Positions 1 to 55,380 of a stretch of 64,000 nucleotides of DNA are shown here, in pieces. The DNA lies in NCBI RefSeq assembly GCF_028641065.1, contig NC_073400.1, positions 32,054,001 through 32,118,000 of the forward strand, given 5' to 3'. The notes under the pieces are model-generated. The model made no database searches. It had not been told where the DNA came from and saw only the letters and a program-made list of their open reading frames with translations. The translations under genes were made by a program, and so were the position numbers. Numbering within the stretch: the stretch's first letter is position 1; each line of letters opens with the position of its first letter. Origin of the DNA: Leucoraja erinacea. Lineage: Eukaryota.

Positions 1-89
1 GGAAACATAGAAAAATAGAAAATAGGTGCAGGAGGAGGCCATTCAGCCCTTCGAGCCAGCAACGCCATTCATTGTGATCATGGCTGATC

Positions 90-640
90 GTGGGCCATGA
101 TCAGCCATGGAGCTGGAGGCCTTGTTCGGGACTGACATTGAGCCCCACAGCGGCAATGTGGACCTACCATCGGAGTCCATCCCTTGCCTGGGATCGATGC
201 TCCAACCACGGCCTGCGGATGTCACCATCGAGGAGCTCACAGTCTTGGGTAGATACCGAGTCGGGAAGCTCCAAAGTCGCAGAAGGTTCGTCCAACCCCG
301 ACCAGGGGTCGATTGCCCGGCGCCGGGAGCTGATGCAGGAGCTGATCGCCCCAACGCGGAGGCCCGCTGCCGGCTGCGGGAGCCAAGATCGTCCCGTCAA
401 CAGAAGGCTCGAGGCCTTCGACCGCAACCGCAGGAGAACAAAGAAGGGAAGGGATTTAACTTTTTTTCACCTTCCACCACAGTGAGGAATGTGGAGGAGT
501 CACTGTAGTGGATGTTCATGTTAAAATGTTTTTTTTGTGTTTTGTTGGTTTTTCATGGTATGGCAAGTCAAATTCCTCGTATGTTGCAAAATATACTTGA
601 CTAATAAAAGTATGATTATTATGATCATGATTATTATGTT
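90..640 (+). mobile_element. GC-rich retroposon with LINE-like 3' tail inside a CR1 end
   Basis: Interrupts the CR1 3' motif; ends AATAAA plus TATGAT repeats. Confidence 0.5.
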
Positions 641-1110
641 TTGCAAGTTAAACACATACAGATATAGTGCTCACGTTAATGGACAGATATCCTGAGAGCT
701 GGATCAGAGAGTGAGAATTCTACCACAGCATTTCACAAGCTATAGGAGTAGTATTAGGCCATTCAGCCCATCGAGTCTACTCCGCCATTTACCCATGGCT
801 GATCTCAGCCACCTAATCCCATTTACCTGTCTTCTCCCCATAACCCTTGACACATGTTCTAATCAAGAACTTGTTTAGCCCTCTGACTAAAGAAGTTCTT
901 CCTCACCTTTTTTAAAAGAGCGCCATTTAATTCTGTCACCTCTGATCATAGACTCTCCCACCAGTGGAAGCATCCTTTCCACAACCACTCTATCTATGCC
1001 TTTCATTATTCTAACCTGGAATTTGGGGAGCTAAAAGGAATACATTGGAATAAAAACTAATAGTCATAGTTTCATGTAGTCCATTATATCACAATGGTTC
1101 TTGTTCTGAC

Positions 1111-1177
1111 CTGTGATAAAGTATTGCATAGAAAGGCACCTCAGTGCTTTGTCCATTATGTTCTGATGGAGCAGTAT
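1111..1177 (-). CDS. Possible CPSF6/7-like exon 5
   Basis: tttgcctatatcag| acceptor, phase-1 open frame DTAPSEHNGQSTE.., candidate donors after 1140 or 1111; no recognisable homology. Confidence 0.25.
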
Positions 1178-2300
1178 CTGATATAGGCAAACATAGCAAG
1201 CATTCTACAACTATATTCCAAACAAATATTCCAAACTTCTGCAGAAGTTTAGTTTAGTTTAGAGATACAGTGTGGAAATAGGCTTTTTGGCCCACTAGTT
1301 CTATCCTACACACTAGGGACAATATACAGATCCCAATTAACATTACCAAATACACATCTTCGGAATGTGGGAGCAAACTGGAGCACCTGGAGAAAGTTCA
1401 CAGTCACAGGGAGAACTTCTGGTGCTGTAAGGCAGGAACGCTACTGCTGCGCCACTGTGAAGACTAAAGAAGTTTGGTACATCTCAACCGACTCTTATCA
1501 ACTTCTACAATTGCACTGTAGAGAGAATCCTATGAGAATGCATCTTGATTTGGCAACAGCTCTGACCAAGAATGAAATAAATTTCAGAATTGTGGCTGTA
1601 ACCCAGTCCAACACACAAACCAGTCTGCCTCCCCACCTGCACATTACATTGCATTGGAAATGACCATTTACAGCCCAGTCATTTCCACTTCTCATTCTCC
1701 CGTGTGTCAGAAGATACGAAAGCTTGAAAGCACATACCACCAAATTCAGGAAAAGCTTATTCCCCGTTGTTATTAGAGTACAAAAGCATTCTCACATAAA
1801 CCAAGGGTGTAGTGCCGATATTCCAACCTATCTCACGTTGGCCCTAGCATCTTTTAAAAGATCTGTACTTTTGTCGTAGCCCTAACACTATGACGGTGTA
1901 ACATTAAATTCTGAGCTGTGGTATTTTTTGCTTTGTACTACCTGTGTACTTGCGTGGGACTTGGTAGTACTTAATTTTTTTAACTACTCTTGTGCGTCCC
2001 CTCAACCTCTGATGCACTAGAGGAAACATTCAAGTCACCCTACAGCCAACATTCGGTGGTGCAGGCAATATCCTGGCCAACCTCATCCGCAACCACTCCA
2101 AATCCTCCACTTCCCCTCTGCCATGCTATGACCAGAACCTCACACAACACTCCAAGTTTGCTAAGAACGGAGTTCTGTAACCAATAAGACATCCTGGTAA
2201 AGCTGCCTCCCCAGTTAACATAAAAGATCTATAAAATATGGAACGGAATCCTCTTTAATCCAGTCTCCCTCAAACAACCAAAAGTAATTTTTCAACTCAC

Positions 2301-2446
2301 CATTTATGAACTGTGTTTCAAAATACTGCCGGTTTGATATGTTAAGGTACCGGACATCAGGAACCCTCCCGTGAACCTTTTTCTTTGGAAGCATTTCCAA
2401 CAATCTGTTGACATCCCAATCCGAGGTCAAATCCACTCTGGCAAAT
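2301..2446 (-). CDS. CPSF6/7-like exon 4 (RRM C-terminal half)
   Basis: ttctatttag| acceptor, G|gtgagt donor, 146 bp; FARVDL..LLEMLPKKKVHG..YFETQ. Confidence 0.9.
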
Positions 2447-5400
2447 CTAAATAGAAAATGATTACTTTTAATGGAGAAACAAAGAAATGCAGATGCAAGC
2501 TAATACACAAAAGGACACAAAGTGCTGGAGTAACTCAGCAGGTCAGACTTCATCTCTGGAGAACCTGTACAGGTGACGTTTCAGGTCGAGACCCTTCTTA
2601 TTTTTTTTAAATTCCAAAGTGACCCTATTACAAATCTTTTAGATGCAGACCAATGTTTTAATTAATTTGGGTACAAGGTTAATGCTAAGCACTTTTGTAC
2701 AAGTTCTCACTTACCCTTTCGATTGACCACCTTTTGGAACTTCATAAAATCTGATTTTATCAACATTACATATTCCAGCCGAGCGAATGCAGCTTGCCAG
2801 GTCCTCCTCAGTTGTCCACTGTAAGAAATCATCATACAAATTTAACAAGTTTAAGAACAAGGAGTAAGCCATTCAGAACAGACGAAGAGACACTTTTTCT
2901 CACAGAGAGTGGCGAGTCTGTGGAATTCTCTGCCTCAGAGGGCGGTGGAGGCAGGTTCTCTGGATGCTAGATAGGGCTCTTAAAAATAGCAGTCAGGGGA
3001 TATGGGGATAAGGCAGGAACGGGGTAGTGATTGGGGATGAGCAGCACTGCAGAGGGTGGTGAAAATTGCCCAACGCATCACTGGTTCCTCACTCCCCTCC
3101 ATTTAGTATGTCCAAAGCAAGCGTTGTCTGCGAAGGGCGCTCAGCATCGTCAAGGACTGCTCTCACCCCAACCACAGACTGTTTACCCTCCTACCATCCG
3201 GGAGGCGCTACAGGTCTATTCCAAATCTACTACCAAAAAAAAAAATCTAACAAAAATCAAAATAAGCACAAAGAAATGTCAAAACACTCATAATCTGTCA
3301 ATCATCATTATTTCAAGAGAAATGCTGTGTCCTTTGTTTCACATAAGTGTGGCTCACCCCTGACTCAACCGACCATGCTATACAACCCGAGGGTTTCTCC
3401 AAAGATACAAAAAGCTGGAGTAACTCAGTGGGACAGGTAGCATATCTGGAGAGAAGGAATGGGTGACGTTTCAGGTAGAAACATTTTTCTCCATTGTCCA
3501 CAATCTGTACAGAATCCTCAGGCAAAAGGGAAGGTGGCAAGTTTTAATATTTGGTCAATGCTTCGTGGCTCACTGATGTGATAGTCATAGGTAATTCTGC
3601 TTCCCTATACCTTTATACAAAATTTATACAAAACGTTGCCCCTTTTATCCATGTTGCACAACATCCCAAGCCAACGCCAAGGTGGCACTGGACAAATTAT
3701 ACTTGGTTGTCAATTCTCTTAAACAAACCCGATGCCCTGTTCATCATGGTCGTCAACTTCAATCTAGCTAACCTCAGGAAGCCCATTGCTTTTTTCCCCA
3801 GAGATGCTGCCTGTCCGGCCGAGTTACTCCAACATTTTATGTCCAACTTCAGGAAGGTGCTCCCCAGCCACCATCAACGTGTCTCCTGTCCCACACAGGG
3901 TGTTAGCATTCTGAACCACCACCACACCACCAACTACGCCCCTCTCTTCATCCCTGGCCCTCACTTCTGACCATCTGTCGGCTCTGCTCCTACCAACTTA
4001 CAGCAAGAGAATGAAGTGCAAGATGCGAACAAAGAGAGCAATGCATCATTGGTCGAAGAGGATGAATGGTTACTACTAAAACTGCCTCGAGCTGGTGAGC
4101 TGGAACACATTCAAAACCACTTCATCCAGCCTGAATGAGTATTGACACAAAGTGCTAGAGTACCTCCACAGGTCAGGTAGCAATCCCGGAGAACATGGAG
4201 CCCGAGTATGTCTCGATTGTCACCAGTTTCATCAAGAAATGTGCTGGACTGCGTTCAATTCGCAGTTCAACTCCAAATCATGGTGAATTCACACAGATGT
4301 TAGCAGGCTGAAAAATGTGCACAAACCATTACTGAAATATCGCTAAAAATGGTGTCTGCTACAAAACACCTCATTAGCACACTTCCCATGGCATCAAAGA
4401 TAAATTTGGATTTTTTAAAAACAAAATCACTGTTGTAACTGCTGAGCTTTCCATTGACTATCTAGTGAGACGATTATCAGCAAAATGCTTGAAATAGTTT
4501 CTCTGTCTCAACTGGTCCCATCCACAGAATCTGCCTCAAGCATATGCAAGCTTACTCCCACTGAAATGTTGACCATTGAACCATTCCTGGGCAAAGCTAG
4601 CCAGTGCTGCAAATTATTCAGGTGCTGTCATACCACCTAGCACAAATCCCATTGCTATCATTCCTACCCCATCCTACTAAACATATCTTCCCTCTCTCCA
4701 AACCCAAGAAAGAGCCTTAAAAACAATTTAGTCCTTTCAAACAAATATCAAATTGACAACTTTCTTCATAGAGCAGCTTATTTTACTCCCAATTAAAGTG
4801 GCTACTTGTTGTGTAAATCACACATACTCACAGATCTGGTATAACAATATTTATTGGGCAACGCATACAACATGCTACATACTCCTACCATGCAGCATAT
4901 AATAATAAAGCACTACATTCCTCTGCAGTCCACTGTTGCCCCAACTCACCAGAAAAACATTTCTGATTTGCCCGACTTGCTGAGTTACTCCAGCATGTAG
5001 TGACTTTTTTTGGAAACCAGCATCAGCAGTTCTTTGTGAAAATATTAATGAGCCCTGAACGCTTAAGTCTTAACTGTTTAGGTCTCCCAAATGCTGTACT
5101 GGATACGGACCACAACAACAAGGCAGGCACCCATGCTAAAGTTTTCACAGCTATTCTTGAATGTAAATTAAGTTTTCAAAGTAGCTATTTCTTTAGTTTC
5201 CATCTACCCACAGCACTAAGCATCGAGTCAGAATTGTTTCCACTAAGTTTCCTCATGCTAAGCATAGCTGGCCAGGGAGCAAGCAGAAATATACCAATGC
5301 CACACTATCAGTTCACCAAGCAAGTTGCGTTTAATGATACGTCATCATTTTACGTCACCACACAGACATCAATATCGTAGTGAATATGCTCACCCATGTC

Positions 5401-8400
5401 AGATTACCAATGAGCAAAGTCTTCTTCTCAGGAAGTACAACTTTATTCTGGCCTGTACGTTTGGGTGGAGTTGCTTTCCATCGATGAGCAGTAGTTAGAG
5501 TAATATTATTTGATGAGCACTGTGGCCGGAGATTACAAATGTTAGGTTTGATCCCGTTATTTAAAGGTACTCCTATTATATCATTGATTAAATCATCATA
5601 CAAATCCATCTGGCTCTGATTTTCATTTTGTGGCTGTGGAAAAAAAAATACAATGGTGAACACTTCACATTTAATGTCACAAGTTGCAGCAAAGAACTCC
5701 ATAATACATATGCCTGTGATTAGAATGTTCTATCATAAAAGGACCCTGATTGTTTCACTGTCATCTGTTTTTATACAACATTTTGCTCCATTGCACTGCT
5801 TCATATCATCTAATGATGGAACGATGAGGGAAATACCTTTACGGTATGCATTTTGTTTTAGTAGTTCAGTTATGTGGTGAATATTATATAGACCTACATC
5901 AATACACTTAAAAATCACTGTGAGGTGCCCTAGTACATGCCTGAAAAAAAATCTATACCATCTCATAAGTGTCAGTGTAAGGGGTAATGACTTTCTTGTG
6001 CCCCTCGATTAACAATCATCCTGCAATGTTTGCATTTTTTTTAACATTCCAACTCCAAGTGTAGGAAGGAATGGGGAGAAAGCAGCAATGGTGTACTGAT
6101 TTTGTATGATTAGCCAACGTCATATTGAATGGCAGGACTGGCTCGGGGCCGAATGGCCGACTCCTGAACCTATTTTCTATGTTTCTATGTAACTGAAGAT
6201 AGACACAAATCGAAGATAGACACAAAATTCCAGGTGGACAAAAATGCTGGAGAAACTCAGCGGGTGAGGCAGCATCTATGGAGCGAAGGAAATAGGCGAC
6301 GTTTCAGGTCGAGACCCCTCTTCAGACTGATGTGAGGATGGGGGGGGTGTGGCAGGAAGAAGAAAGGAAAAGGCGGAGACAGTGGACTGAGGGAGAGCTG
6401 AAAAGGGGAGGAGAAAGCAGGGACCACCTGAAATTGGAGAAGTCAATGTTCATACAGCTGGGGTGTAAACTGCCCAAGCGAAGTATAGAAACATAGAAAA
6501 TAGGTGCAGTAGTAGGCCATTCGGCCCTTCGAGCCTGCATTCAATATGATCATGGCTGATCATCCAACTTAGTATCCTGTACCTGCCTTCTCTCCATTCC
6601 CCCCGATCCCTTTAGCCACAAGGGCCACATCTAACTCCCTCTTAAATATAGTATGAGAAATATGCTCCTCCAATTTACGGTGGGCCTCACTCTGACCATG
6701 GAGGAGGACCAGGACAGAAAGGTCGAATTCGGAATGGGAGGGGGAGTTGAAGTGCTGAGCCACCAGGAGATCAGATTGGTTATTGCGAACCGAGCGGAGG
6801 TGTTGGGCGAAGTGATCAGTAGGCAATCACAATGAAGAATTCATAAAGCTTGCAAATTGGGGGAGGAGCACTATTTTTAAAACTTGAAGCTTTTACAGAA
6901 TGCCAATTTCAAAGCTGAAACAAACACACAACTGCAGAAAATACAAAGTGCCAGAGTATCTCAGCATGGAGGGATATGGAAAGGCAATATTTTGCATCAG
7001 GACCTTGCTTCAGACTGATTGTAGGAGTGGGGAGAAAGCTGGAAAGATACAGGTGAGGGGGGTTTATTAGCAGATGGGTAGAATAAATAACAACGGCTAG
7101 AGGGTACTTATGATTAAGTTAGCATCCACTTGAAGAAACCCCTTTCTATACGTCCTTCCCACGTATTAAAAAGTCAACTATATTCTGACATATTTAGTTG
7201 TGGACAATGAAGTTGAGACTGTTTGGGTAATAGGACGAGGGTTTTCCAGTAGTAATCACATGCTACTACATTAAAAGCTCACCTACACAATAACCAGCTG
7301 GTGTTTATTTTGATTTTTTAAACGATTGCCTTGAAATAGAGCAGTTCTGAATCATTAACTGTTTTTCATTACACCTGCCCAGTGGAGTGTTTCCAGCATT
7401 TGTTTTAATTTGAGTAGCATAACACTCCAGGGTTCCAATTGATCACATCTCCCCCTTACATTAATTTCTGGATCAGGATGTGATACGATGAAACGCTCTA
7501 CGTAGAGCATCACTCAGCACTATGATGGTTTAATAATTGTAGAATGACTTCCTATTCAGTTATTTAAGAAATAAGTCAGTATAAGCAGTGATAAATATCA
7601 GGAACACTAAGAACAGCATTTAAAGCCCATTAAAAAGTTATCAAGCAAAAGAGAACTGCTGGAGGAACTCAGCAGGTTGAACATACGGGGCAGGGGAAGA
7701 GGGAGACACAATCGACATTGCGAGTCGCGATGCAGGGTCTTGACCTGAAATGTGGAGAGTTATTTTCCCCTCCCACAGATGCTGTTCGACCCACCGGGTT
7801 CCTGCAGTGGGTTGTTTGTTGCTCCAGATTCTAGCACCTTCAGTCTCTTGATCAAAACACAAAGTGATGGAGGAACTCGGAGGGTCAGGCAGCATCTGTG
7901 GAGGGAATAGACAGACTACACTTTGTTTTTTTTATCTTCTAAAATAAAAACATTCTGAAGAAGGGTCCCGACCCAAGACAAGGTCTGCCCGTTCCATCCA
8001 CAAATGCTGCCTGACCCGCTGAGTTCCTCCAACACTTTCTTCTGATCAAGACTCCAGCACCGCATTTTTTTTTTGTATCTTTAAAAGCACCGAATGGTTA
8101 ATTATTTGTTTACAGCCCAACCTTTAGATTGTGCAGGATGTTTGGCCACAGAATGTTATGTGTAAAAAGGGAAATCTCGAGGGGGGGGGGGAGCGGCGGC
8201 AGCTCAGACCAAAGAAACTAGAAAGCCTGTTTTCTAAGATCTTTGGGTCGGACAGCTCCTCACCGAGCGGCTGTGTCCCGGGTTCCCACCCTCGGGCCCA
8301 GCCCAGCCCAGCCCAGCCCGGCCCGGCCCCACAGCAACGGCGCCCCCAGTTACAACCCAGCGCCGGATTTCTCCCCCACGCATCTCAGGCATCTCCCCGG

Positions 8401-8507
8401 GTGGCCCGCCGGCACCGAGGTACCTGCTCAGAGCTGGCGGCCTCCGCGCTCTCCGCATCCAGCAAGTCGCGTAGCGCCTGGCCGGCCATGTTCGTGCGCA
8501 CCGCCAT
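2301..8507 (-). CDS. CPSF6-like: Divergent CPSF6/CPSF7 (CFIm large subunit)-like gene, 5' part with full RRM; 3' end unresolved
   Basis: GT-AG exons 8424-8489 (or ATG 8507), 5394-5633, 2715-2818, 2301-2446 splice in frame: MAGQALRDLLDAESAEAASSEQ|PQNENQSQMDLYDDLI..LLIGNLTW|WTTEEDLASCIRSAGICNVDKIRFYEVPKGGQSKG|FARVDLTSDWDVNRLLEMLPKKKVHG..; matches CPSF6 motifs DLYDD, YIGNLTWWTTDEDL, GQSKGFA, LPKRELHG as recalled. Confidence 0.88.
2715..2818 (-). CDS. CPSF6/7-like exon 3 (RRM)
   Basis: tttcttacag| acceptor, GG|gtaagt donor, 104 bp; WTTEEDL..GQSKG. Absent from the ORF track. Confidence 0.92.
5394..5633 (-). CDS. CPSF6/7-like exon 2 (DLYDD to RNP2 LLIGNLTW)
   Basis: ttttccacag| acceptor, TGG|gtgagc donor, 240 bp open. 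Confidence 0.9.
6236..6820 (-). mobile_element. Penelope-like element fragment with nested CR1 end
   Basis: DHFAQHLRSVRNNQSDLLVAQHFNSPSH GIY-YIG remnant; CR1 tail ~6486-6650. Confidence 0.75.
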
Positions 8508-8630
8508 TTTACCACAGCCCATGGTGCCGCGCGGGCGCCGCGCTCCGCCCCGCCCCCCGCCCCCGGCTGCGCCCTCTGTGGCGCCCAGCGGCACTGCAGC
8601 CGCACAACAGCCCTGCCTCGACAAACTAGT
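8180..8630. promoter_or_regulatory. CpG island at 5' end of CPSF6/7-like gene, YY1-type motif
   Basis: GC/CpG-rich in AT-rich background; CCGCCATTTT 8501-8510; GC boxes ~8545-8565. Confidence 0.75.
8424..8489 (-). CDS. CPSF6/7-like exon 1 (start uncertain: ATG 8489, 8507 or 8522)
   Basis: In CpG island; ends CAG|GTACCT, phase 0, in frame with exon 2. Confidence 0.7.
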
Positions 8631-9395
8631 CTAGTACTAAGCAAAGGATCTTTGGTACTCAAGAAGGAACTGCAGGTGCTGGAAAATCGAGGGTACACAA
8701 GAGTCAAGAGTCAAGAGTCAATTTAATTGTCATTTGGACCCCTGGAGGTCCAAACGAAAAGCCGTTTCACAATGCAGCCACAGTAAACATTCATAACACA
8801 AATAGACCCCGCTGACACCAGTGCCATAATTACAGTGTCCGTAAACCGCAGAGTCACATCAGTGACTGAGTGCATGACTGTTTAAGCAGCCAAAAAAAAG
8901 GAAGCTTTTCAGCCTCTCCACTGCATGCTCGATATCTCCCCCCCCCAAGAGATCCAGTACAAGAAGAAGGAACTCACACAAAAAAATCTGGAGACAAAAA
9001 AGCGGAGTGCGGCAGCAGCATCTATGGAGCGAAGGAAATAGGCAACGTTTCGGGCCGAAACCCTTCTTCAGACTGATTCGGTCTGAACGAAATTATGTTG
9101 CCTGCAGTCATACACAGAATCAATAATAACAAAACATACAATAAACACAAATTAAACATCCACCACAGTGAGTTCACCAAGCACATCCTCACTGTGATGG
9201 AGGCAAAGTCTTAGTCTGAATGTGTTATATTTTTATTGTGGTTGTGTGTTCTTTATTATTGTACCGCTGCTGACAACCCAAAATTCCACCGACCCTGGTT
9301 GTGTGGCAATAAATTCTATCAATCAATCGTGTTGAATGGCGGCGCTGGCTCGAAGGGCCGAATGGTCTCGGAGTTGTTTTTTTTATTACAGCTGT

Positions 9396-9900
9396 CGACC
9401 AGTTGCCGTGTTGCTGTAGACGCCGCCATTTTCCTACCAGCCGCCGCTGCGCATGCGCGGCACAGGGTGTGTGCGCGTCCCGCCGGCTCTGCGCACGCGC
9501 CGCGTTTTGGCGGGAGTAGTGGTTGTCCGCCGGCCGTCGAGGAGCGGGAGGAGGAGGAGGAGAGACACGAGCGGCCGGTGCCCGGTGGCGGTGGGAGGGG
9601 AGGGACAGAGCGGGGTGGGGAGGGAGGGAGGAAGGGGGGGGGGGGGGGGAGGGAGGAAGGGAAAGGGGGGGGGGGAAGGAAAGGGGGGAGGGAGGAAGGA
9701 AAGGGGGGGGAGGAGGAAAGGAAAGGAGGAGGTAGTGAGGAAGAGGAGAGACGAGCGGCCGGTGCCCGCTGGCAGTGGGTGGGTGGGTGGGAGGGAGCGA
9801 GCGGGGTGGGGGAGAGAAGAGACGAGCTGAGGAAACAACGAGGTGGGACATTGTGAGCGAAGGGCGGGCGGGACAAGCGGTGGTTGGGGTCAGACCCACC
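9396..9900. promoter_or_regulatory. Second CpG island with YY1- and NRF1-type motifs and G-rich purine tract
   Basis: CGCCGCCATTTT 9421-9432, TGCGCATGCGCG 9448-9459, G/A tract ~9590-9750. Confidence 0.6.
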
Positions 9901-24330: not shown

Positions 24331-25175
24331 CATAGGGTGAACTTGCGCGTGGTGGGGGGTGGATTTGTAACTTTGTAAGTGCCCATCATGGGAGGTATGC
24401 AAGGAAAGACCTTTATGGGATTAACTGGATTTGTCTTTGCCTTTGTCAAATTAATTTCCTTGGTGAGTGCTGGGATGTCATTTAAACATTATTCTAACTG
24501 AGTTTTAGTCGCGTGGTTTTCTAGGCCATTTCTTCTTTCTAGGATGGTAGTGAACCAGTTGAATTTTTACAACAAATGGTTGGTCTCATTGATGATAGCT
24601 TTTAAATCCAGATTTAGGTAATTAAATGAATTGAAATTCCATAAGCTTGCATGATTTGAATTTGTGCCATCAGTTCATTAGCCCGGGACTCGTCTAATAT
24701 GGAAATGCATTTATTATGGAATTATTATTGAAAATTGTGTACATTTTGGAATCTAGACTGCTGCCTTGAGCAAATTTCATATTACTTCCTTAAACAGCAA
24801 CTGGGTTTCAACAACAAAGAGAGTTTATTCAAACTGATACATATTCAATTTATGCATTATTCTTTCTAGAGGCATGACTCATCCTACCCCAACTAGAGAG
24901 CAGTCCTGAACTATTATCAACCTCAATGGTGACCCTCGGACTACCTTTGATCTGACTTTAATGGCTTTACCTTGCACTAAACGTTATTCACTTATAACGT
25001 ATCTATACAGTCAATGATTGTAATCATTTATTGCCTTTCCGCTGACTGGATAGCACGCAAAAAAAGCTTTTCACTGCACCTCAGTACACGTGACGATAAA
25101 CTAAACTGAACTGTTTATTTATCAGCTGGGGAAATTGGTGTTACATTTAATAAATATTACATTTTCACTTTTTAG

Positions 25176-25210
25176 ACAACTGGACTTTATGCATGTGATG
25201 TCTTATGATT
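25176..25210 (+). CDS. Chitinase unit 1 exon 7, 5' half
   Basis: tttag|A CAA CTG GAC..TAT GAT = QLDFMHVMSYD, then L2. Confidence 0.9.
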
Positions 25211-27292
25211 CAGCACGACGGGAGTGTCGCAGAGCTGAGCGAAAGTGGAGGAAGGACAGGCTACAGGTTTCACTTCAAATTCTCAGGGACTGTTGGCGTC
25301 ACTACCAAAACAGTGTTAAAAAGGCCAAGAGAGAGTACCTGTCTAAAATTATTGTGTCAAAGTGTAACAACCCTCGTGTGCTATTTGAAATCATTGACTC
25401 TGTTCTAAATGCCCCGCAGCCTGTCTGTCTGGAAGCTTCACCTGAAATGTGTAATGACTTCCTGCACTTTTTTGTTGATAAGGTTGTTTCCTTAAGGGCT
25501 AACATTTCAGCACCTGCCTCTGACCCTTCTGTTTCGGTCCCTTGCCTGGTGGTATTCGACAAGTTTGAGCCTGTGACTATATCGTATTTAAAGGATGTGG
25601 TTTCCCATATTAAGCCATCGGGTTCTCCTTGTGATGCGGTCCCTCCACATCTTTTTAAGGAGGTCTTCCCTAGTGTAGGGCAGTCGGTTCTTACCAGTAG
25701 TAACAGCAGCTTGTGTTCTGGGGTTGTCCACGTGAGTTTTAAGCATGCGGTAGTGCTACCACTGCTTAAGAAACCTGGCCTGGATCAATCTGTGCTGGCC
25801 AATTTTAGACCCATCTCGAAATTGCCTTTTATTTCTAAATTGCTGGAGAGAGTTGTTTATGCTCAGCTAAAACTATTCCTGGAGGAGCATGATATTCGGG
25901 AGATCTTCCAGTCTGGATTTAAAACCATGCACAGCACGGAGTCAGCATTGCTAAGGGTTTTTAACGATATCCTCCTGGCTAATGATTCTGGGGATTGTGT
26001 GGTTCTTGTCCTGCTGGACTTGTCTGCCGCCTTTGATACGGTGGACCATAATATCTTATTATCTCGGCTACAGCAGTTAGTGGGCATCTGCGACAGTGCC
26101 CTGGGATGGTTCAGGTCCTATCTGGCGGGCAGAACCATGTGTGTTAGCCTTGCTGGGTTTGAATCCTCTTCCGCTCCCCTGTCATATGGGGTTCCACAGG
26201 GTTCGATTCTGGGGCCCCTGCTTTTCTCGCTGTACATACTTCCTCTGGGTTCCATCCTTAGAAAGCATGGCATCTCCTTCCACTGTTATGCAGATGATAC
26301 CCAACTAATATATGCCCGCTGAGGGGGGAAGATGCCTTTTCTGTAAAATCGCTTCTGTCTTGTTTTGATGACATTAAGTCCTGGTTGGCCCTAAACTTTC
26401 TTGGATTTAATGAAAAGAAGACAGAGGTGATTTTATTTGATCCCAATGGCTGCCGTGAACCTCCATTTGTTGATTTAGGTCCATTGTCAAGGTACGTGAA
26501 GCCAACAGTTGTGAACCTGGGGTTTAGGATGGACAGTGACTTTAAATTAGATCGCCAAATATGCGCGGTGGTTAAGTCCAGCTTCTTTCACCTAAGGAAG
26601 CTGGCGAAGGTGAAGCCCATTCTCGAGCGGCAGCATTTTGAAACAGTAATCCATGCCTTTATTACATCTAGGCTGGATTACTGTACGCTCTATTTTGGTG
26701 TTGCTCGTTCTTCCCTCGCTCGTCTCCAGTTGTTTCCGAATGCTGCTGCTCGCCTTTTGACAGGGACTCGGAAGCGGGAGCACATATCGCCAATTCTGGC
26801 CTCCCTACACTGGCTCCCGGTGCACTTTCGGGTTCATTTTAAGTTACTGTTATTTGTTTTTAAATCTCTGAATGGGCTCGCCCCGCCTTACCTCTCTGAG
26901 CTGCTCCACCCATACACTCCTGCCCGGTCCCTCAGGTCAGCTGGTCAGCTGCTCCTGGAGGTACCGAGGTCTAGTCGGAGGCTCAGAGGGGATAGAGCCT
27001 TCTCTGTTGCTGCTCCGGCACTCTGGAACACCCTGCCGCTGCACATCAGACAGGCCCCCTCACTGTCCATCTTCAAATCCAGTGTTAAAACGCATTTGTA
27101 CTCCCTGGCTTTTGACCATGCCTGAGGCTTTGCTTCTGTTTGTGGTGTTTTTGATGTTTCTTTATTTTACATGTCTTTTCCTACTATTTCTTTTGATTGT
27201 TATTTTTGGTGTGTATTAACTTTTTTGTCAATGATTAGTGATGTACAGCACTTTGTTGCAGCTATGTTTGTTTTTAAAGTGCATAAATAAAA
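25211..27292 (+). mobile_element. 5'-truncated L2-clade LINE (reverse transcriptase) with 15-bp TSD
   Basis: NFRPISKLPF, LDLSAAFDTVDH, GVPQGSILGP, YADD, LHWLPV, GDRAFS; TSD TGATGTCTTATGATT at 25196-25210 and 27293-27307; frameshift near 26310; AATAAA 27286. Confidence 0.95.
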
Positions 27293-29631: not shown

Positions 29632-30340
29632 GTAAATCATTTATTATGAAACTATTTAAATTATATATTTGTATTAATTATAGAAAATATCTTTAATTTG
29701 TTGATGATTCAGGTATTCACTGATTTTGAAAATACTTTGAATACTACTGACAAGATGTTAGTTTCCTGCGTAGGCAAGTGACAAATGCGTTGCCTGGTGT
29801 AGGCAAAGATGATCCAGAGCAGAGAGTCTAAAATTGAATTCCTGTGTGTTGTAACTTCTTGTAAGGCAGCCCTCAGGATCAAGGCCAACCTGCATACTCT
29901 GTCTCTGACTGGTGAGGCCCCTGGGAATCACAGGCTCTTCTTCAGATGGGGCAGTAGGAGCCTGATTGGGTGTGTGGGTACTTTATAGCAACATACAAAC
30001 GGAAACAGGCCCTTTGTCCCAACTCATCCATGTCAACTGAGATGCCCCATCTAATATAGTCCCATTTTCCCACAGTTGGGCCATATTTCTGTAATTATTT
30101 CCTACCAGTCCAATTATCTTTTAAAATTGGTTTAGTACCTGCCTCACTGACCTCTGGCAGCTTGTTCAATATACCTACCAGCCTCTAAGTGAAAAATTTG
30201 CCCCTCTGGTTCCAATTAAAGCGTTCCAAGGAATAAAGTCCCAGCTTGCCCAATCTGGCCTGGTAGCTCAGGCCCTTGAGTCCTGGCAACATCCTCATAA
30301 ATGTTCTCTGCACTGTTTCCAGCTTAGTGATATCCTTAGT

Positions 30341-31674
30341 GAAGAGTAAGGTGACGTGCCTCAATGACTATCGACCATTGGCACTAACGCCGGTGGTGAA
30401 GAAGTGCTTTGAGAGGTTGATCATGGAGCAAATCAACTCCTACCTCGACAAAAACTTGGACCCACTGCAGTTCGCTGACTGCCACAACAGATCAACGGTG
30501 GATGCGATCTCGCTGGCCCTCCACTCGGCTCTGGACCACTTGGACAACAACTCATATGTCAGGCTGTTATTCATCGATTACAGCTCGGCAGAAATGGGTC
30601 TCTGCGCATCCCTCTGCAATTGGATCCTCAACTTCCTCATTCAAAGACCACAGTCTGTTCGTATTGGTGGAAATGTGTCAGCCTCGATAACAATCAGCAC
30701 GAGAGCACCTCAAGGCTGCGTGCTCAACCCCCTGCTGTACTCCCTCTATACTCATGACTGCGTATCCGGTCACAGTGCAAACTCCATCATCAAGTTCGCT
30801 GACGACACCACTGTTGTGGGACGTATCACTGATGGGGACGAGTCATAGTATAGAAGAGAGATCGAGCAACTGTCCATATGGTAACCTGGCCCTCAACACC
30901 AGCAAAACCAAGGAACTGATTGTGGACTTTGGAAGGAGTAGGATGGGGACCCACAGCCCCGTTTATATCAACGGGTCGATGGTTGAAAGGGTCAAGAGCT
31001 TCAAATTCCTGGGCGTGCACATCTCTGAAGATCTTTCCTGGTCCGAGAACACTTAATACAATCATCAAGAAAGCTCATCAGCGCCTCTACTTCCTGAGAA
31101 GATTACGGAGAGTCGGATTGTCAAGGAAGACTCTCTCTAACTTCTACAGGTGCACGGTAGAGAGCATGCTGACCGGTTGCACCATGGCTTGGTACGGCAA
31201 CTTGAGCGCCCTGGAGAGGAAAAGACTACAAAAAGTAGTAAACACTGCCCAGTCCATCATCGGCTCTGACCTTCCTTCCATCGAGGGGATTTATCGCAGT
31301 CGCTGCCTCAAAAAGGCTGGCAATATCATCAAAGACCCACACCATCCTGGCCACACACTCATCTCCCTGCTACCTTCAGGTAGAAGGTACAGGAACCTGA
31401 AGACTGCAACAACCAGGTTGAGGAATTGCTACTTCCCCACAGCCATCAGGCTATTAAACCTGGCTCGGACAAAACTTTGATTATTAATAACCAATTATCT
31501 GTCATTTGCACTTTATCGTTTTATTTATTCATGTGTGTATATATTTATATTATAGTATATGGACACATTGATCTGTTTTGTAGTCAATGCCTACTATGTT
31601 CTGTTGTGCTGAAGCAAAGCAAGAATTTAATTGTCCTATCAGGGACACATGACAATAAACTAACTTGAACTTGA
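30341..31674 (+). mobile_element. Rex1/Babar LINE, decayed RT and 3' end
   Basis: [35 protein letters not shown]; tail AACTTG repeats. Confidence 0.9.
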
Positions 31675-55189: not shown

Positions 55190-55380
55190 GGTTGTAGACC
55201 AGTTGACGACGACGACGACGACGACGCCGCTTCTTCCCGGCCGCCGCTGCGCATGCGCGGCACAGGGTGTGTGCGCGTCCCGCCGGCTCTGCGCACGCGC
55301 CGGGTTTTGGCGGGAGCGGTGGATGTCCGCCGGCCGTCGAGGAGGAGAGGCGCGAGCGGCCGGTGCCCGCTGAGGAAACA
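55190..55380. promoter_or_regulatory. Duplicated CpG-island fragment (NRF1-type motif) directly upstream of chitinase unit 3
   Basis: Near-identical to 9441-9545 and 9752-9838; TGCGCATGCGCG 55248-55259. Confidence 0.7.

What the first reader, a model, noticed from the sequence alone, without database searches (positions are those of the whole stretch)
2301..8507. Divergent intron-containing CFIm68/59 (CPSF6/CPSF7)-like paralogue
Seen: four in-frame exons with canonical splice sites and a CpG-island promoter, so neither a retrocopy nor obviously dead. Known: vertebrates have two CFIm large subunits with strongly conserved RRMs that bind CFIm25/NUDT21 and control alternative polyadenylation. 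Here GNLTWWTT and GQSKGFA are kept, but RNP2 Tyr is Leu, ENRAN is EVPKG and the acidic N-terminus is rewritten. Inference: a third paralogue that could form a variant CFIm complex.
Basis: partly seen in the sequence, partly recalled or inferred. Interest (0 to 1): 0.7.

Follow-up and report, generated by a model that had tools for sequence, protein, structure and literature searches.

The report
Third CFIm subunit of cartilaginous fishes
Sharks, rays and chimaeras carry an intact, spliced third copy of the poly(A)-site regulator CPSF6/CPSF7, likely left over from the vertebrate genome doubling, which is predicted to still dock on its partner NUDT21 but has lost most of the activating half and would therefore likely damp rather than drive the choice of distal poly(A) sites.

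Summary
Confirmed and extended. The four exons are real (AG/GT, one open frame) and are the first four of nine; exons 5-9 lie just left of the window and give a 539-aa protein identical to the last 539 aa of a RefSeq 'CPSF6-like' model. Assembled contigs from four studies join the exons at the predicted borders. Intact CPSF6 (C19) and CPSF7 (C18) lie elsewhere, so this is a third gene. Orthologues occur in 19 named cartilaginous fishes, chimaera included, and in no other named taxon found. It sits near MDM4- and BTG2-like genes, mirroring MDM2-CPSF6 on C19: most likely the 2R ohnologue of CPSF6 (trees cannot exclude CPSF7). The RRM loop GNLTWW is invariant, but N117/N120 of the NUDT21-binding loop (N120 in 245 of 245 other family proteins) are replaced in all 15 rows, and the Pro-rich region, PF25524 helical domain and RE/RD-rich tail have decayed. 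A model still docks it on NUDT21 (0.82 vs best control 0.00), perhaps from memory of solved complexes. Best reading: a weakly or non-activating CFIm subunit competing with CPSF6; function untested. Annotated automatically; no paper describing it found. New variant of a known kind; interest 0.5.

The parts
8001..9000 (.). CpG-island promoter region around exon 1; three in-frame ATGs at 8522, 8507, 8489
   Evidence: GC 0.59/0.52, CpG o/e 0.75/0.69; ATGs read from the sequence; RefSeq model starts at the most upstream one
8424..8522 (-). Exon 1, coding part; divergent N-terminus
   Evidence: GT donor; contig in run X5 joins 8424-8520 to exon 2
5394..5633 (-). Exon 2: conserved QMDLYDDLINDIIGV block, linker, RNP2 (Leu for Tyr) and GNLTW
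   Evidence: AG/GT; tiled by contigs in X1, X5, X6, X8
2715..2818 (-). Exon 3: RRM, WTT and the beta2/beta3 loop EVPKGGQ (aa 134-140 = CPSF6 116-122)
   Evidence: AG/GT, 104 nt as in CPSF6/7; loop tally
2301..2446 (-). Exon 4: second half of the RRM and C-terminal helix
   Evidence: AG/GT, 146 nt as in CPSF6/7; spliced contigs
1..2300 (-). Start of intron 4, which runs out of the window. Exons 5-9 lie beyond the left end, on G000:C24 minus strand: exon 5 32051854-32051750 (105 nt); exon 6 32050978-32050663 (316 nt, decayed Pro-rich exon); exon 7 32049542-32049448 (95 nt); exon 8 32048804-32048651 (154 nt, one helix kept); exon 9 coding part with stop 32048091-32047716 (RS-like tail), then a 3' UTR running on unspliced for over 1.2 kb
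   Evidence: spliced contigs; domain state

Best explanation
This is an intact, spliced third CPSF6/CPSF7-family gene shared by cartilaginous fishes, most likely the second-round genome-duplication sister of CPSF6, whose protein is predicted to still clamp onto the NUDT21 dimer and would likely act as a weak or non-activating CFIm subunit that competes with CPSF6. Shown: gene structure, splicing, the two canonical genes elsewhere, spread, neighbourhood, domain losses. Inferred, step by step: (1) after duplication the copy changed fast (stem 1.6-2.0 changes per site) and then came under constraint before chimaeras and elasmobranchs split; (2) the RRM docks through the invariant WWT loop and E134/G139/Q140/S141, while the remodelled loop tip (V-x-K-G for N-R-A-N) alters affinity or the RNA path; (3) the RS-bearing tail takes it to the nucleus; (4) lacking the Pro-rich region, the PF25524 helices and most RE/RD repeats it recruits the cleavage machinery poorly, so where expressed it would tie up NUDT21 and shift some transcripts to proximal poly(A) sites. 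Odds: third paralogue 0.97; 2R sister of CPSF6 0.75; binds NUDT21 0.65; acts as damping subunit 0.45.
For: Nine coding exons with CPSF6's phases; genome-spliced protein has 0 differences from the last 539 aa of XP_055510973.1; single contigs tile exons 2-9 in runs X6 and X8, exons 4-9 in X1, exon 1-2 in X5. Only three family loci in G000; CPSF6 and CPSF7 intact. 14 X-type clusters among the best 120 listed of 122 hits, 19 named species, all chondrichthyan; clade support 100/100. The genome's only two MDM2-type exons found lie 135 kb from CPSF6 (C19) and 0.82 Mb from this gene (C24); BTG pair on C19 and 0.29 Mb from this gene; myogenic genes on C19, C18, C24. MDM2/MDM4 are ohnologues and cpsf6-cpm-mdm2 is a conserved block (PMC5033493, passages); the little-skate study lists its chromosome 24 as 2-beta partner of chromosome 19 (PMC10115646 supplement sheet 3) and names genes Cpsf6-1 and Cpsf6-2 on them. 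Profile of exons 5-9 scores skate CPSF6 77 bits, CPSF7 40 bits. Four conserved blocks over the clade, RRM 73% identical skate-chimaera against 32-38% in exons 6-8. Complex model 0.82, best of 3 controls 0.00 (mark reached by 51 of 78 solved complexes and 2 of 108 mismatched pairs); runs agree in at least 95% of contacts, partner pLDDT at least 87; most of the tightest contacts use residues 108-111, 134, 139-141. PF25524 below cut-off in 8 of 8 orthologues, 127 and 148 bits in the 2 controls; tail 13% Arg and net charge 0 against 41-43% and +8 to +12. Human CPSF6 needs its RS-like domain for TNPO3 import and FIP1L1 contact (PMC6511849, passages); CFIm59 and CFIm68 complexes already compete (PMC9458458, passages).
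Against: Deleting residues 116-122 abolishes NUDT21 binding and APA function in human CPSF6 (PMC6511849; 10.1101/177980, passages), and this gene changes 4 of those 7 positions, including N120 (245 of 245 other rows with a loop, 0 of 15 here) and N117 (232 of 245; Val in 15 of 15). The complex pass may come from memory of solved CFIm25/68 and /59 structures; the tool says close cousins pass, the alignments were not used, and the NUDT21 chain was from Heterodontus. Trees disagree on the parent: RRM-centred sets group it with CPSF7 (96/99; 94/100), the longer set with CPSF6 (65/91); neither is rejected (p-AU 0.27 and 0.34). No expression site, no APA data, no dN/dS. The tail still holds 5 RS dipeptides and some sharks keep a net charge of +13 or +14, so activation may not be lost.
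Confidence: 0.45

Rival explanations
1. The protein has left the CFIm complex: the fixed loop and RNP2 changes retooled the RRM for another partner or for RNA, and it works as a stand-alone SR-like splicing or RNA-processing factor.
For: N117 and N120 replaced in all 15 rows, in the loop needed for NUDT21 binding (PMC6511849; 10.1101/177980); RNP2 Tyr replaced (Leu 14, Phe 1 of 15); a very long stem branch; new clade-specific conserved blocks at aa 29-52 and 416-450; no divergent NUDT21 in G000 to co-adapt with.
Against: GNLTWW is invariant in 15 of 15 although it varies in bony-vertebrate CPSF7 rows; E116, G121, Q122 equivalents invariant; the model places these at the NUDT21 interface.
Confidence: 0.25
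2. It is a working, activating CFIm subunit with its own target preference or tissue (a sub-functionalised third partner, like CPSF7 beside CPSF6), possibly germline-biased.
For: RRM fold intact (pLDDT 72-90 over aa 101-190; top Foldseek hits are CFIm68/59 RRMs); docking predicted; RS block aa 416-450 conserved (12 of 35 invariant); CpG-island promoter.
Against: PF25524, 100% identical between skate and chimaera CPSF6 and alignable to molluscs, is lost; RE/RD repeats thinned to a third of the Arg content; no tissue data support the germline idea (recalled analogy to CstF-64tau only).
Confidence: 0.2
3. Origin rival: it is a duplicate of CPSF7, or an early chondrichthyan segmental copy that moved into the chitinase array, not a 2R sister of CPSF6.
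For: RRM-centred trees join it to CPSF7; it sits inside a tandem chitinase array spanning C24:31.83-32.26 Mb; no bony-vertebrate copy found.
Against: It has CPSF6's nine coding exons, where the CPSF7 model has eight; C-terminal profile prefers CPSF6; MDM and BTG pairs link C24 to C19; X+CPSF6 not rejected (p-AU 0.27) and long branches may attract.
Confidence: 0.25
4. It is a slowly decaying, dispensable duplicate with no role left.
For: Only 48% identical between skate and chimaera against 93-100% per region for CPSF6; three domains degenerate.
Against: Open frame in 19 named species across holocephalans, sharks and rays; conservation is blocky, 26 of 100 RRM columns invariant against 1 of 135 in the middle region.
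Confidence: 0.07

Closest known systems
CPSF6 (CFIm68)
   Same: Nine coding exons with the same phases, exons 3, 4 and 8 of equal length; CFIm68-type RRM (45% identity to the C19 copy); GNLTWWTT; QxDLYDD motif; RS-bearing C-terminus; MDM-family neighbour on the paired chromosome.
   Different: 27% identity overall; loop 116-122 is EVPKGGQ; RNP2 Leu; no Pro-rich domain; PF25524 lost; tail twice as long, Tyr/Ser/His-rich, neutral; found only in cartilaginous fishes.
CPSF7 (CFIm59)
   Same: A second-type large subunit thought to compete with CPSF6; RRM 43% identical to the C18 copy; some shared RRM residues pull them together in RRM trees.
   Different: CPSF7 keeps ENRANGQ, the Pro-rich region, PF25524 and the RE/RD tail; its model here has eight coding exons; it is a separate intact gene on C18.
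WGD ohnologues kept in chondrichthyans and lost in bony fishes (19 cases counted in PMC10115646)
   Same: Likely a beta-segment copy with fast evolution, kept in sharks, rays and chimaera.
   Different: Here the copy is of a core 3'-end-processing factor and is heavily remodelled; I could not see the paper's gene list, so it may or may not be among the 19.
Retro-derived variants of 3'-end factors such as CstF-64tau and PAPOLB (recalled, not checked)
   Same: An extra, divergent copy of a polyadenylation factor.
   Different: Those are intronless mammalian retrocopies; this gene keeps all eight introns and predates the chimaera-shark split.

Membership tests
CFIm large subunit (CPSF6/CPSF7) | N-terminal RRM of the CFIm68/59 type with GNLTWWT | tested here: met
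   PDB sequence hits 3q2s E 8e-20, 3n9u E 9e-16; Foldseek ranks 1-12 are CFIm RRMs; GNLTWW in 15 of 15
CFIm large subunit (CPSF6/CPSF7) | Shared intron positions and phases | tested here: met
   phases 0,0,2,1,1,2,1,2 in both this gene and CPSF6
CFIm large subunit (CPSF6/CPSF7) | beta2/beta3 loop E-N-x-x-N-G-Q (116-122) | tested here: not met
   E, G, Q kept; N117 is Val in 15 of 15, N120 never Asn
CFIm large subunit (CPSF6/CPSF7) | Central proline-rich domain | tested here: not met
   11% Pro against 40% and 29%
CFIm large subunit (CPSF6/CPSF7) | PF25524 helical domain before the RS tail | tested here: not met
   0 of 8 orthologues over the cut-off of 27 bits, best 11.7; no hit on C24; one helix remains
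CFIm large subunit (CPSF6/CPSF7) | RS/RE/RD-rich C-terminal domain | tested here: inconclusive
   5 RS dipeptides as in CPSF6/7, but 13% Arg and 2 RE, 1 RD against 41-43% and 6-9 RE, 7-8 RD
CFIm large subunit (CPSF6/CPSF7) | Binds the NUDT21 dimer | tested here: inconclusive
   model score 0.82, best control 0.00, may reflect memory of solved complexes
CFIm large subunit (CPSF6/CPSF7) | Promotes UGUA-dependent distal poly(A) site use | not testable with these tools
   needs cell or in-vitro assays
2R ohnologue of CPSF6 | Lies in the paralogous block, beside ohnologues of CPSF6's neighbours | tested here: met
   MDM pair and BTG pair on C19/C24; PMC5033493; PMC10115646 supplement sheet 3; gene names of neighbours partly recalled from motifs
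2R ohnologue of CPSF6 | Groups with CPSF6 in a gene tree | tested here: inconclusive
   65/91 for X+CPSF6 on 195 columns; 94/100 for X+CPSF7 on 110 columns; neither rejected
2R ohnologue of CPSF6 | Older than the chimaera-elasmobranch split | tested here: met
   Callorhinchus orthologue inside the 100/100 clade
Retrocopy or pseudogene | No introns, or stops/frameshifts and no transcripts | tested here: not met
   eight introns, open frame, spliced contigs

The most novel reading that the evidence does not exclude
Jawed vertebrates once had three CFIm large subunits; cartilaginous fishes turned the third into a built-in antagonist that occupies NUDT21 through a rewired clamp loop and switches 3' UTRs to short forms in a particular tissue or stage, a natural dominant-negative that bony vertebrates lost.
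Probability: 0.3. Interest if true: 0.72.

Novelty: new variant of a known kind. Interest (0 to 1): 0.5.

Why it matters
CFIm is the main switch between long and short 3' UTRs and is described with exactly two large subunits. A third, kept for the whole history of cartilaginous fishes, changes residues that are fixed in nearly all other animal CPSF6/7 proteins seen here. It is a natural separation-of-function variant: it lets one test which loop residues serve NUDT21 binding and which serve RNA handling, and what the highly conserved PF25524 helices do. It also adds a core RNA-processing gene to the duplicates that sharks and rays kept and bony vertebrates appear to have lost. The function is untested, the gene is already in RefSeq under a '-like' name, and retained ohnologues are a known class, which caps the score.

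Tried and rejected
Sole orthologue of CPSF6 or CPSF7: rejected. Truncated four-exon gene: rejected; a first screen for Pro-rich or RS frames missed exons 5-9 because they are so diverged, tblastn with CPSF6 and reading the sequence found them. Retrocopy, pseudogene: rejected. A conserved 3' UTR intron: a GT lies 2 nt after the stop as in CPSF6/7, but contigs run through it unspliced; dropped. A co-evolving divergent NUDT21: not found; two copies 98.6-99.4% alike over the aligned parts. No RNA holder listed on record: the runs are 'RNA?' guesses, and the tissue is unknown; contig depths are no measure of expression and were not used. ESM Atlas search of aa 330-539: best score 0.79, lead only, nothing usable. 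Long-frame listing of flanks was uninformative apart from a YEATS4-like start after CPSF6 (output cut; name recalled). dN/dS not computed: no orthologous coding DNA was available. Li et al. 2011 structure paper not held; no paper with the N117A mutant found, so the role of the loop tip in RNA looping is recalled only. Catshark supplement unreadable. Earlier scan notes: none. Two CPSF7 rows (Lissotriton, Geotrypetes) were left out of the tree because the cutting pattern missed them; searches used 22 chosen rows.
Full report
Observation. The promoter region is a CpG island. The frame matches the CFIm68 RRM at E 8e-20 and the CFIm59 RRM at E 9e-16 in the PDB.

The whole gene. The window is G000:C24:32054001-32118000. 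Five more exons lie 2-6 kb left of the window. Spliced together the nine give 539 aa, with end phases 0,0,2,1,1,2,1,2, the same as CPSF6; exons 3, 4 and 8 have identical lengths. A search with exon 4 alone returned an unnamed 539-aa protein from a 2,863-nt assembled contig. It differs from my prediction at 2 positions; the RefSeq little-skate protein XP_055510973.1 in the same cluster, named 'CPSF6-like', differs at none over its last 539 aa. Laying contigs of four runs from four studies on the locus showed single records tiling exons 2-9 with the introns skipped at the predicted borders (X6, X8), exons 4-9 (X1) and exon 1 to exon 2 (X5). The runs are only guessed to be RNA, but no intronless copy was found in G000, so these are best read as spliced transcripts. 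Tissue is unknown.

A third gene. Searches with exons 3 and 4 each gave 3 loci: this one, C19 and C18; PF25524 hit only C19 and C18 above cut-off. C19 holds an intact nine-exon CPSF6 (555 aa), C18 an intact CPSF7 read as eight coding exons. The new protein is 27% and 26% identical to them, 45% and 43% in the RRM.

Spread. The full protein found 122 relatives, the best 120 listed; the top 14 clusters are this type and all named ones are cartilaginous fishes. With cluster members the count is 19 named species of skates, rays, sharks and the chimaera Callorhinchus, labelled 'CPSF6-like', 'CPSF7-like' or 'uncharacterized'. An unindexed phmmer search of 1.84 billion representatives gave 350 hits, 150 listed; the strongly scoring ones are of this clade, and no other listed protein carries its loop. 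This does not exclude a less diverged copy in a bony vertebrate under a CPSF6 label; their genomes could not be searched.

Origin. The clade has 100/100 support and a stem of 1.6-2.0 changes per site, against mostly under 0.5 for the branches inside it: a burst of change, then constraint. Trees do not settle the parent. RRM-centred sets join it to CPSF7, a 195-column set to CPSF6 (65/91), and neither is rejected (p-AU 0.27, 0.34). Other evidence favours CPSF6. It has CPSF6's exon 5, and a profile of its exons 5-9 scores skate CPSF6 at 77 bits and CPSF7 at 40. The two MDM2-type exons found in the genome lie 135 kb from CPSF6 on C19 and 0.82 Mb from this gene on C24. BTG1/2-type genes lie on C19, on C16 and 0.29 Mb from this gene, and myogenic factors on C19 (two), C18 and C24 (the single gene names are recalled from motifs). 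MDM2 and MDM4 are genome-duplication ohnologues and cpsf6-cpm-mdm2 is a conserved block (PMC5033493, passages). [quoted passage not shown] The gene itself sits inside a chitinase array. I put the 2R-sister-of-CPSF6 reading at 0.75.

What changed. The RRM folds confidently and matches CFIm RRMs best; most of the rest is modelled with low confidence. GNLTWW is invariant in 15 of 15 rows. The loop equal to CPSF6 116-122 is E-V-x-K/R-G/T/S-G-Q in all 15, whereas 245 of 245 other rows with a loop (of 249 examined, isoforms included, so not independent) have Asn at 120 and 232 have Asn at 117. Deleting 116-122 abolishes NUDT21 binding and APA rescue in human cells (PMC6511849 and 10.1101/177980, passages). 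The Pro-rich region is down to 11% Pro; PF25524 is below cut-off in 8 of 8 orthologues scanned though 100% identical between skate and chimaera CPSF6; the tail keeps 5 RS dipeptides but only 13% Arg. Conservation inside the clade is in blocks: aa 29-52, the RRM, aa 364-392 and aa 416-450, which argues for selection; dN/dS was not computed.

Mechanism. A model of the RRM with a shark NUDT21 dimer scored 0.82 against a best control of 0.00 (mark reached by 51 of 78 solved complexes and 2 of 108 mismatched pairs; runs agree in at least 95% of contacts; partner pLDDT at least 87). The interface is aa 107-113, 132 and 134-141; most of the tightest contacts use residues the clade kept, though the replaced position 138 also touches. 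Like complexes are solved, so this shows likeness, not binding. I commit to this: the protein likely still docks on NUDT21, likely reaches the nucleus through its RS tail (human CPSF6 uses that domain for TNPO3 import and FIP1L1 contact, PMC6511849), and, having lost most of the activating half, would compete with CPSF6 and favour proximal sites, as CFIm59 and CFIm68 complexes already compete (PMC9458458, passages). Confidence 0.45. Rivals: it left CFIm and works as a stand-alone SR-like factor (0.25); it is a working third activator with its own targets (0.2); it is decaying (0.07).

Novelty. Searches for CPSF6+CPSF7+paralog+cartilaginous and CFIm68+CFIm59+evolution+whole genome duplication found 0 papers; CPSF6+CPSF7+duplication+vertebrate+phylogen found 5, none on this by title and abstract start; one search listed 15 of 835, of which one holds 'cpsf6' and treats it as a synteny marker. 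The skate paper has no 'cpsf' in its main text and lists Cpsf6-1 and Cpsf6-2 only as chromatin-contact baits in the supplement held; that file was cut, one PDF was unreadable, and the list of retained ohnologues was not seen, so the gene may be named there. The whale-shark supplements gave 0 hits in the 12 of 24 files searched; the catshark supplement could not be read. Subscription journals are mostly not held. PMC8139829 was read in passages only, for background.

Verdict. Real, intact, transcribed, old and conserved third member of a two-member family, strongly remodelled; already annotated automatically, not described in what I could search; function untested. New variant of a known kind, interest 0.5.

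Noticed in passing
window 13800-64000 and G000:C24:31.83-32.26 Mb: A tandem array of family-18 chitinase genes surrounds the gene on both sides (46 exon-level matches, all on C24). The nearest copy, near window 17800, has [10 protein letters not shown], with Glu where its neighbours have Asp in the catalytic motif.
   Followed up: partly
G000:C17:15.90 Mb and 16.02 Mb (L038-L045): NUDT21 is present twice, 123 kb apart, 98.6-99.4% alike including introns: a recent tandem copy or an uncollapsed haplotype.
   Followed up: partly
window 9419-9584 and 55223-55369: A CpG-rich element of about 160 bases occurs twice in the window; the first copy lies 0.9 kb upstream of the gene and ends in the same AAAATGGCGG motif found at the ATG at 8507 (YY1-like, recalled).
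   Followed up: partly
P0025, P0280, P0134, P0135 (Scyliorhinus torazame): This catshark seems to have two copies of the third paralogue with different loops (EVAKGGQ and EVPRTGQ) under adjacent gene numbers, and catsharks and carpet sharks carry tandem repeat expansions in exons 8-9.
   Followed up: no
G000:C18:23565845-23611507: Chondrichthyan CPSF7 keeps GNLTWW and looks much more CPSF6-like than bony-vertebrate CPSF7; several shark CPSF7 proteins are labelled 'CPSF6-like' in databases.
   Followed up: partly
G000:C16:43860221-43860460: A third BTG1/BTG2-type gene besides those on C19 and C24, a possible further retained ohnologue.
   Followed up: no
window 25105-27125 and 30267-31480: Long frames that look like broken LINE reverse-transcriptase copies among the chitinase genes (identification recalled).
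   Followed up: no
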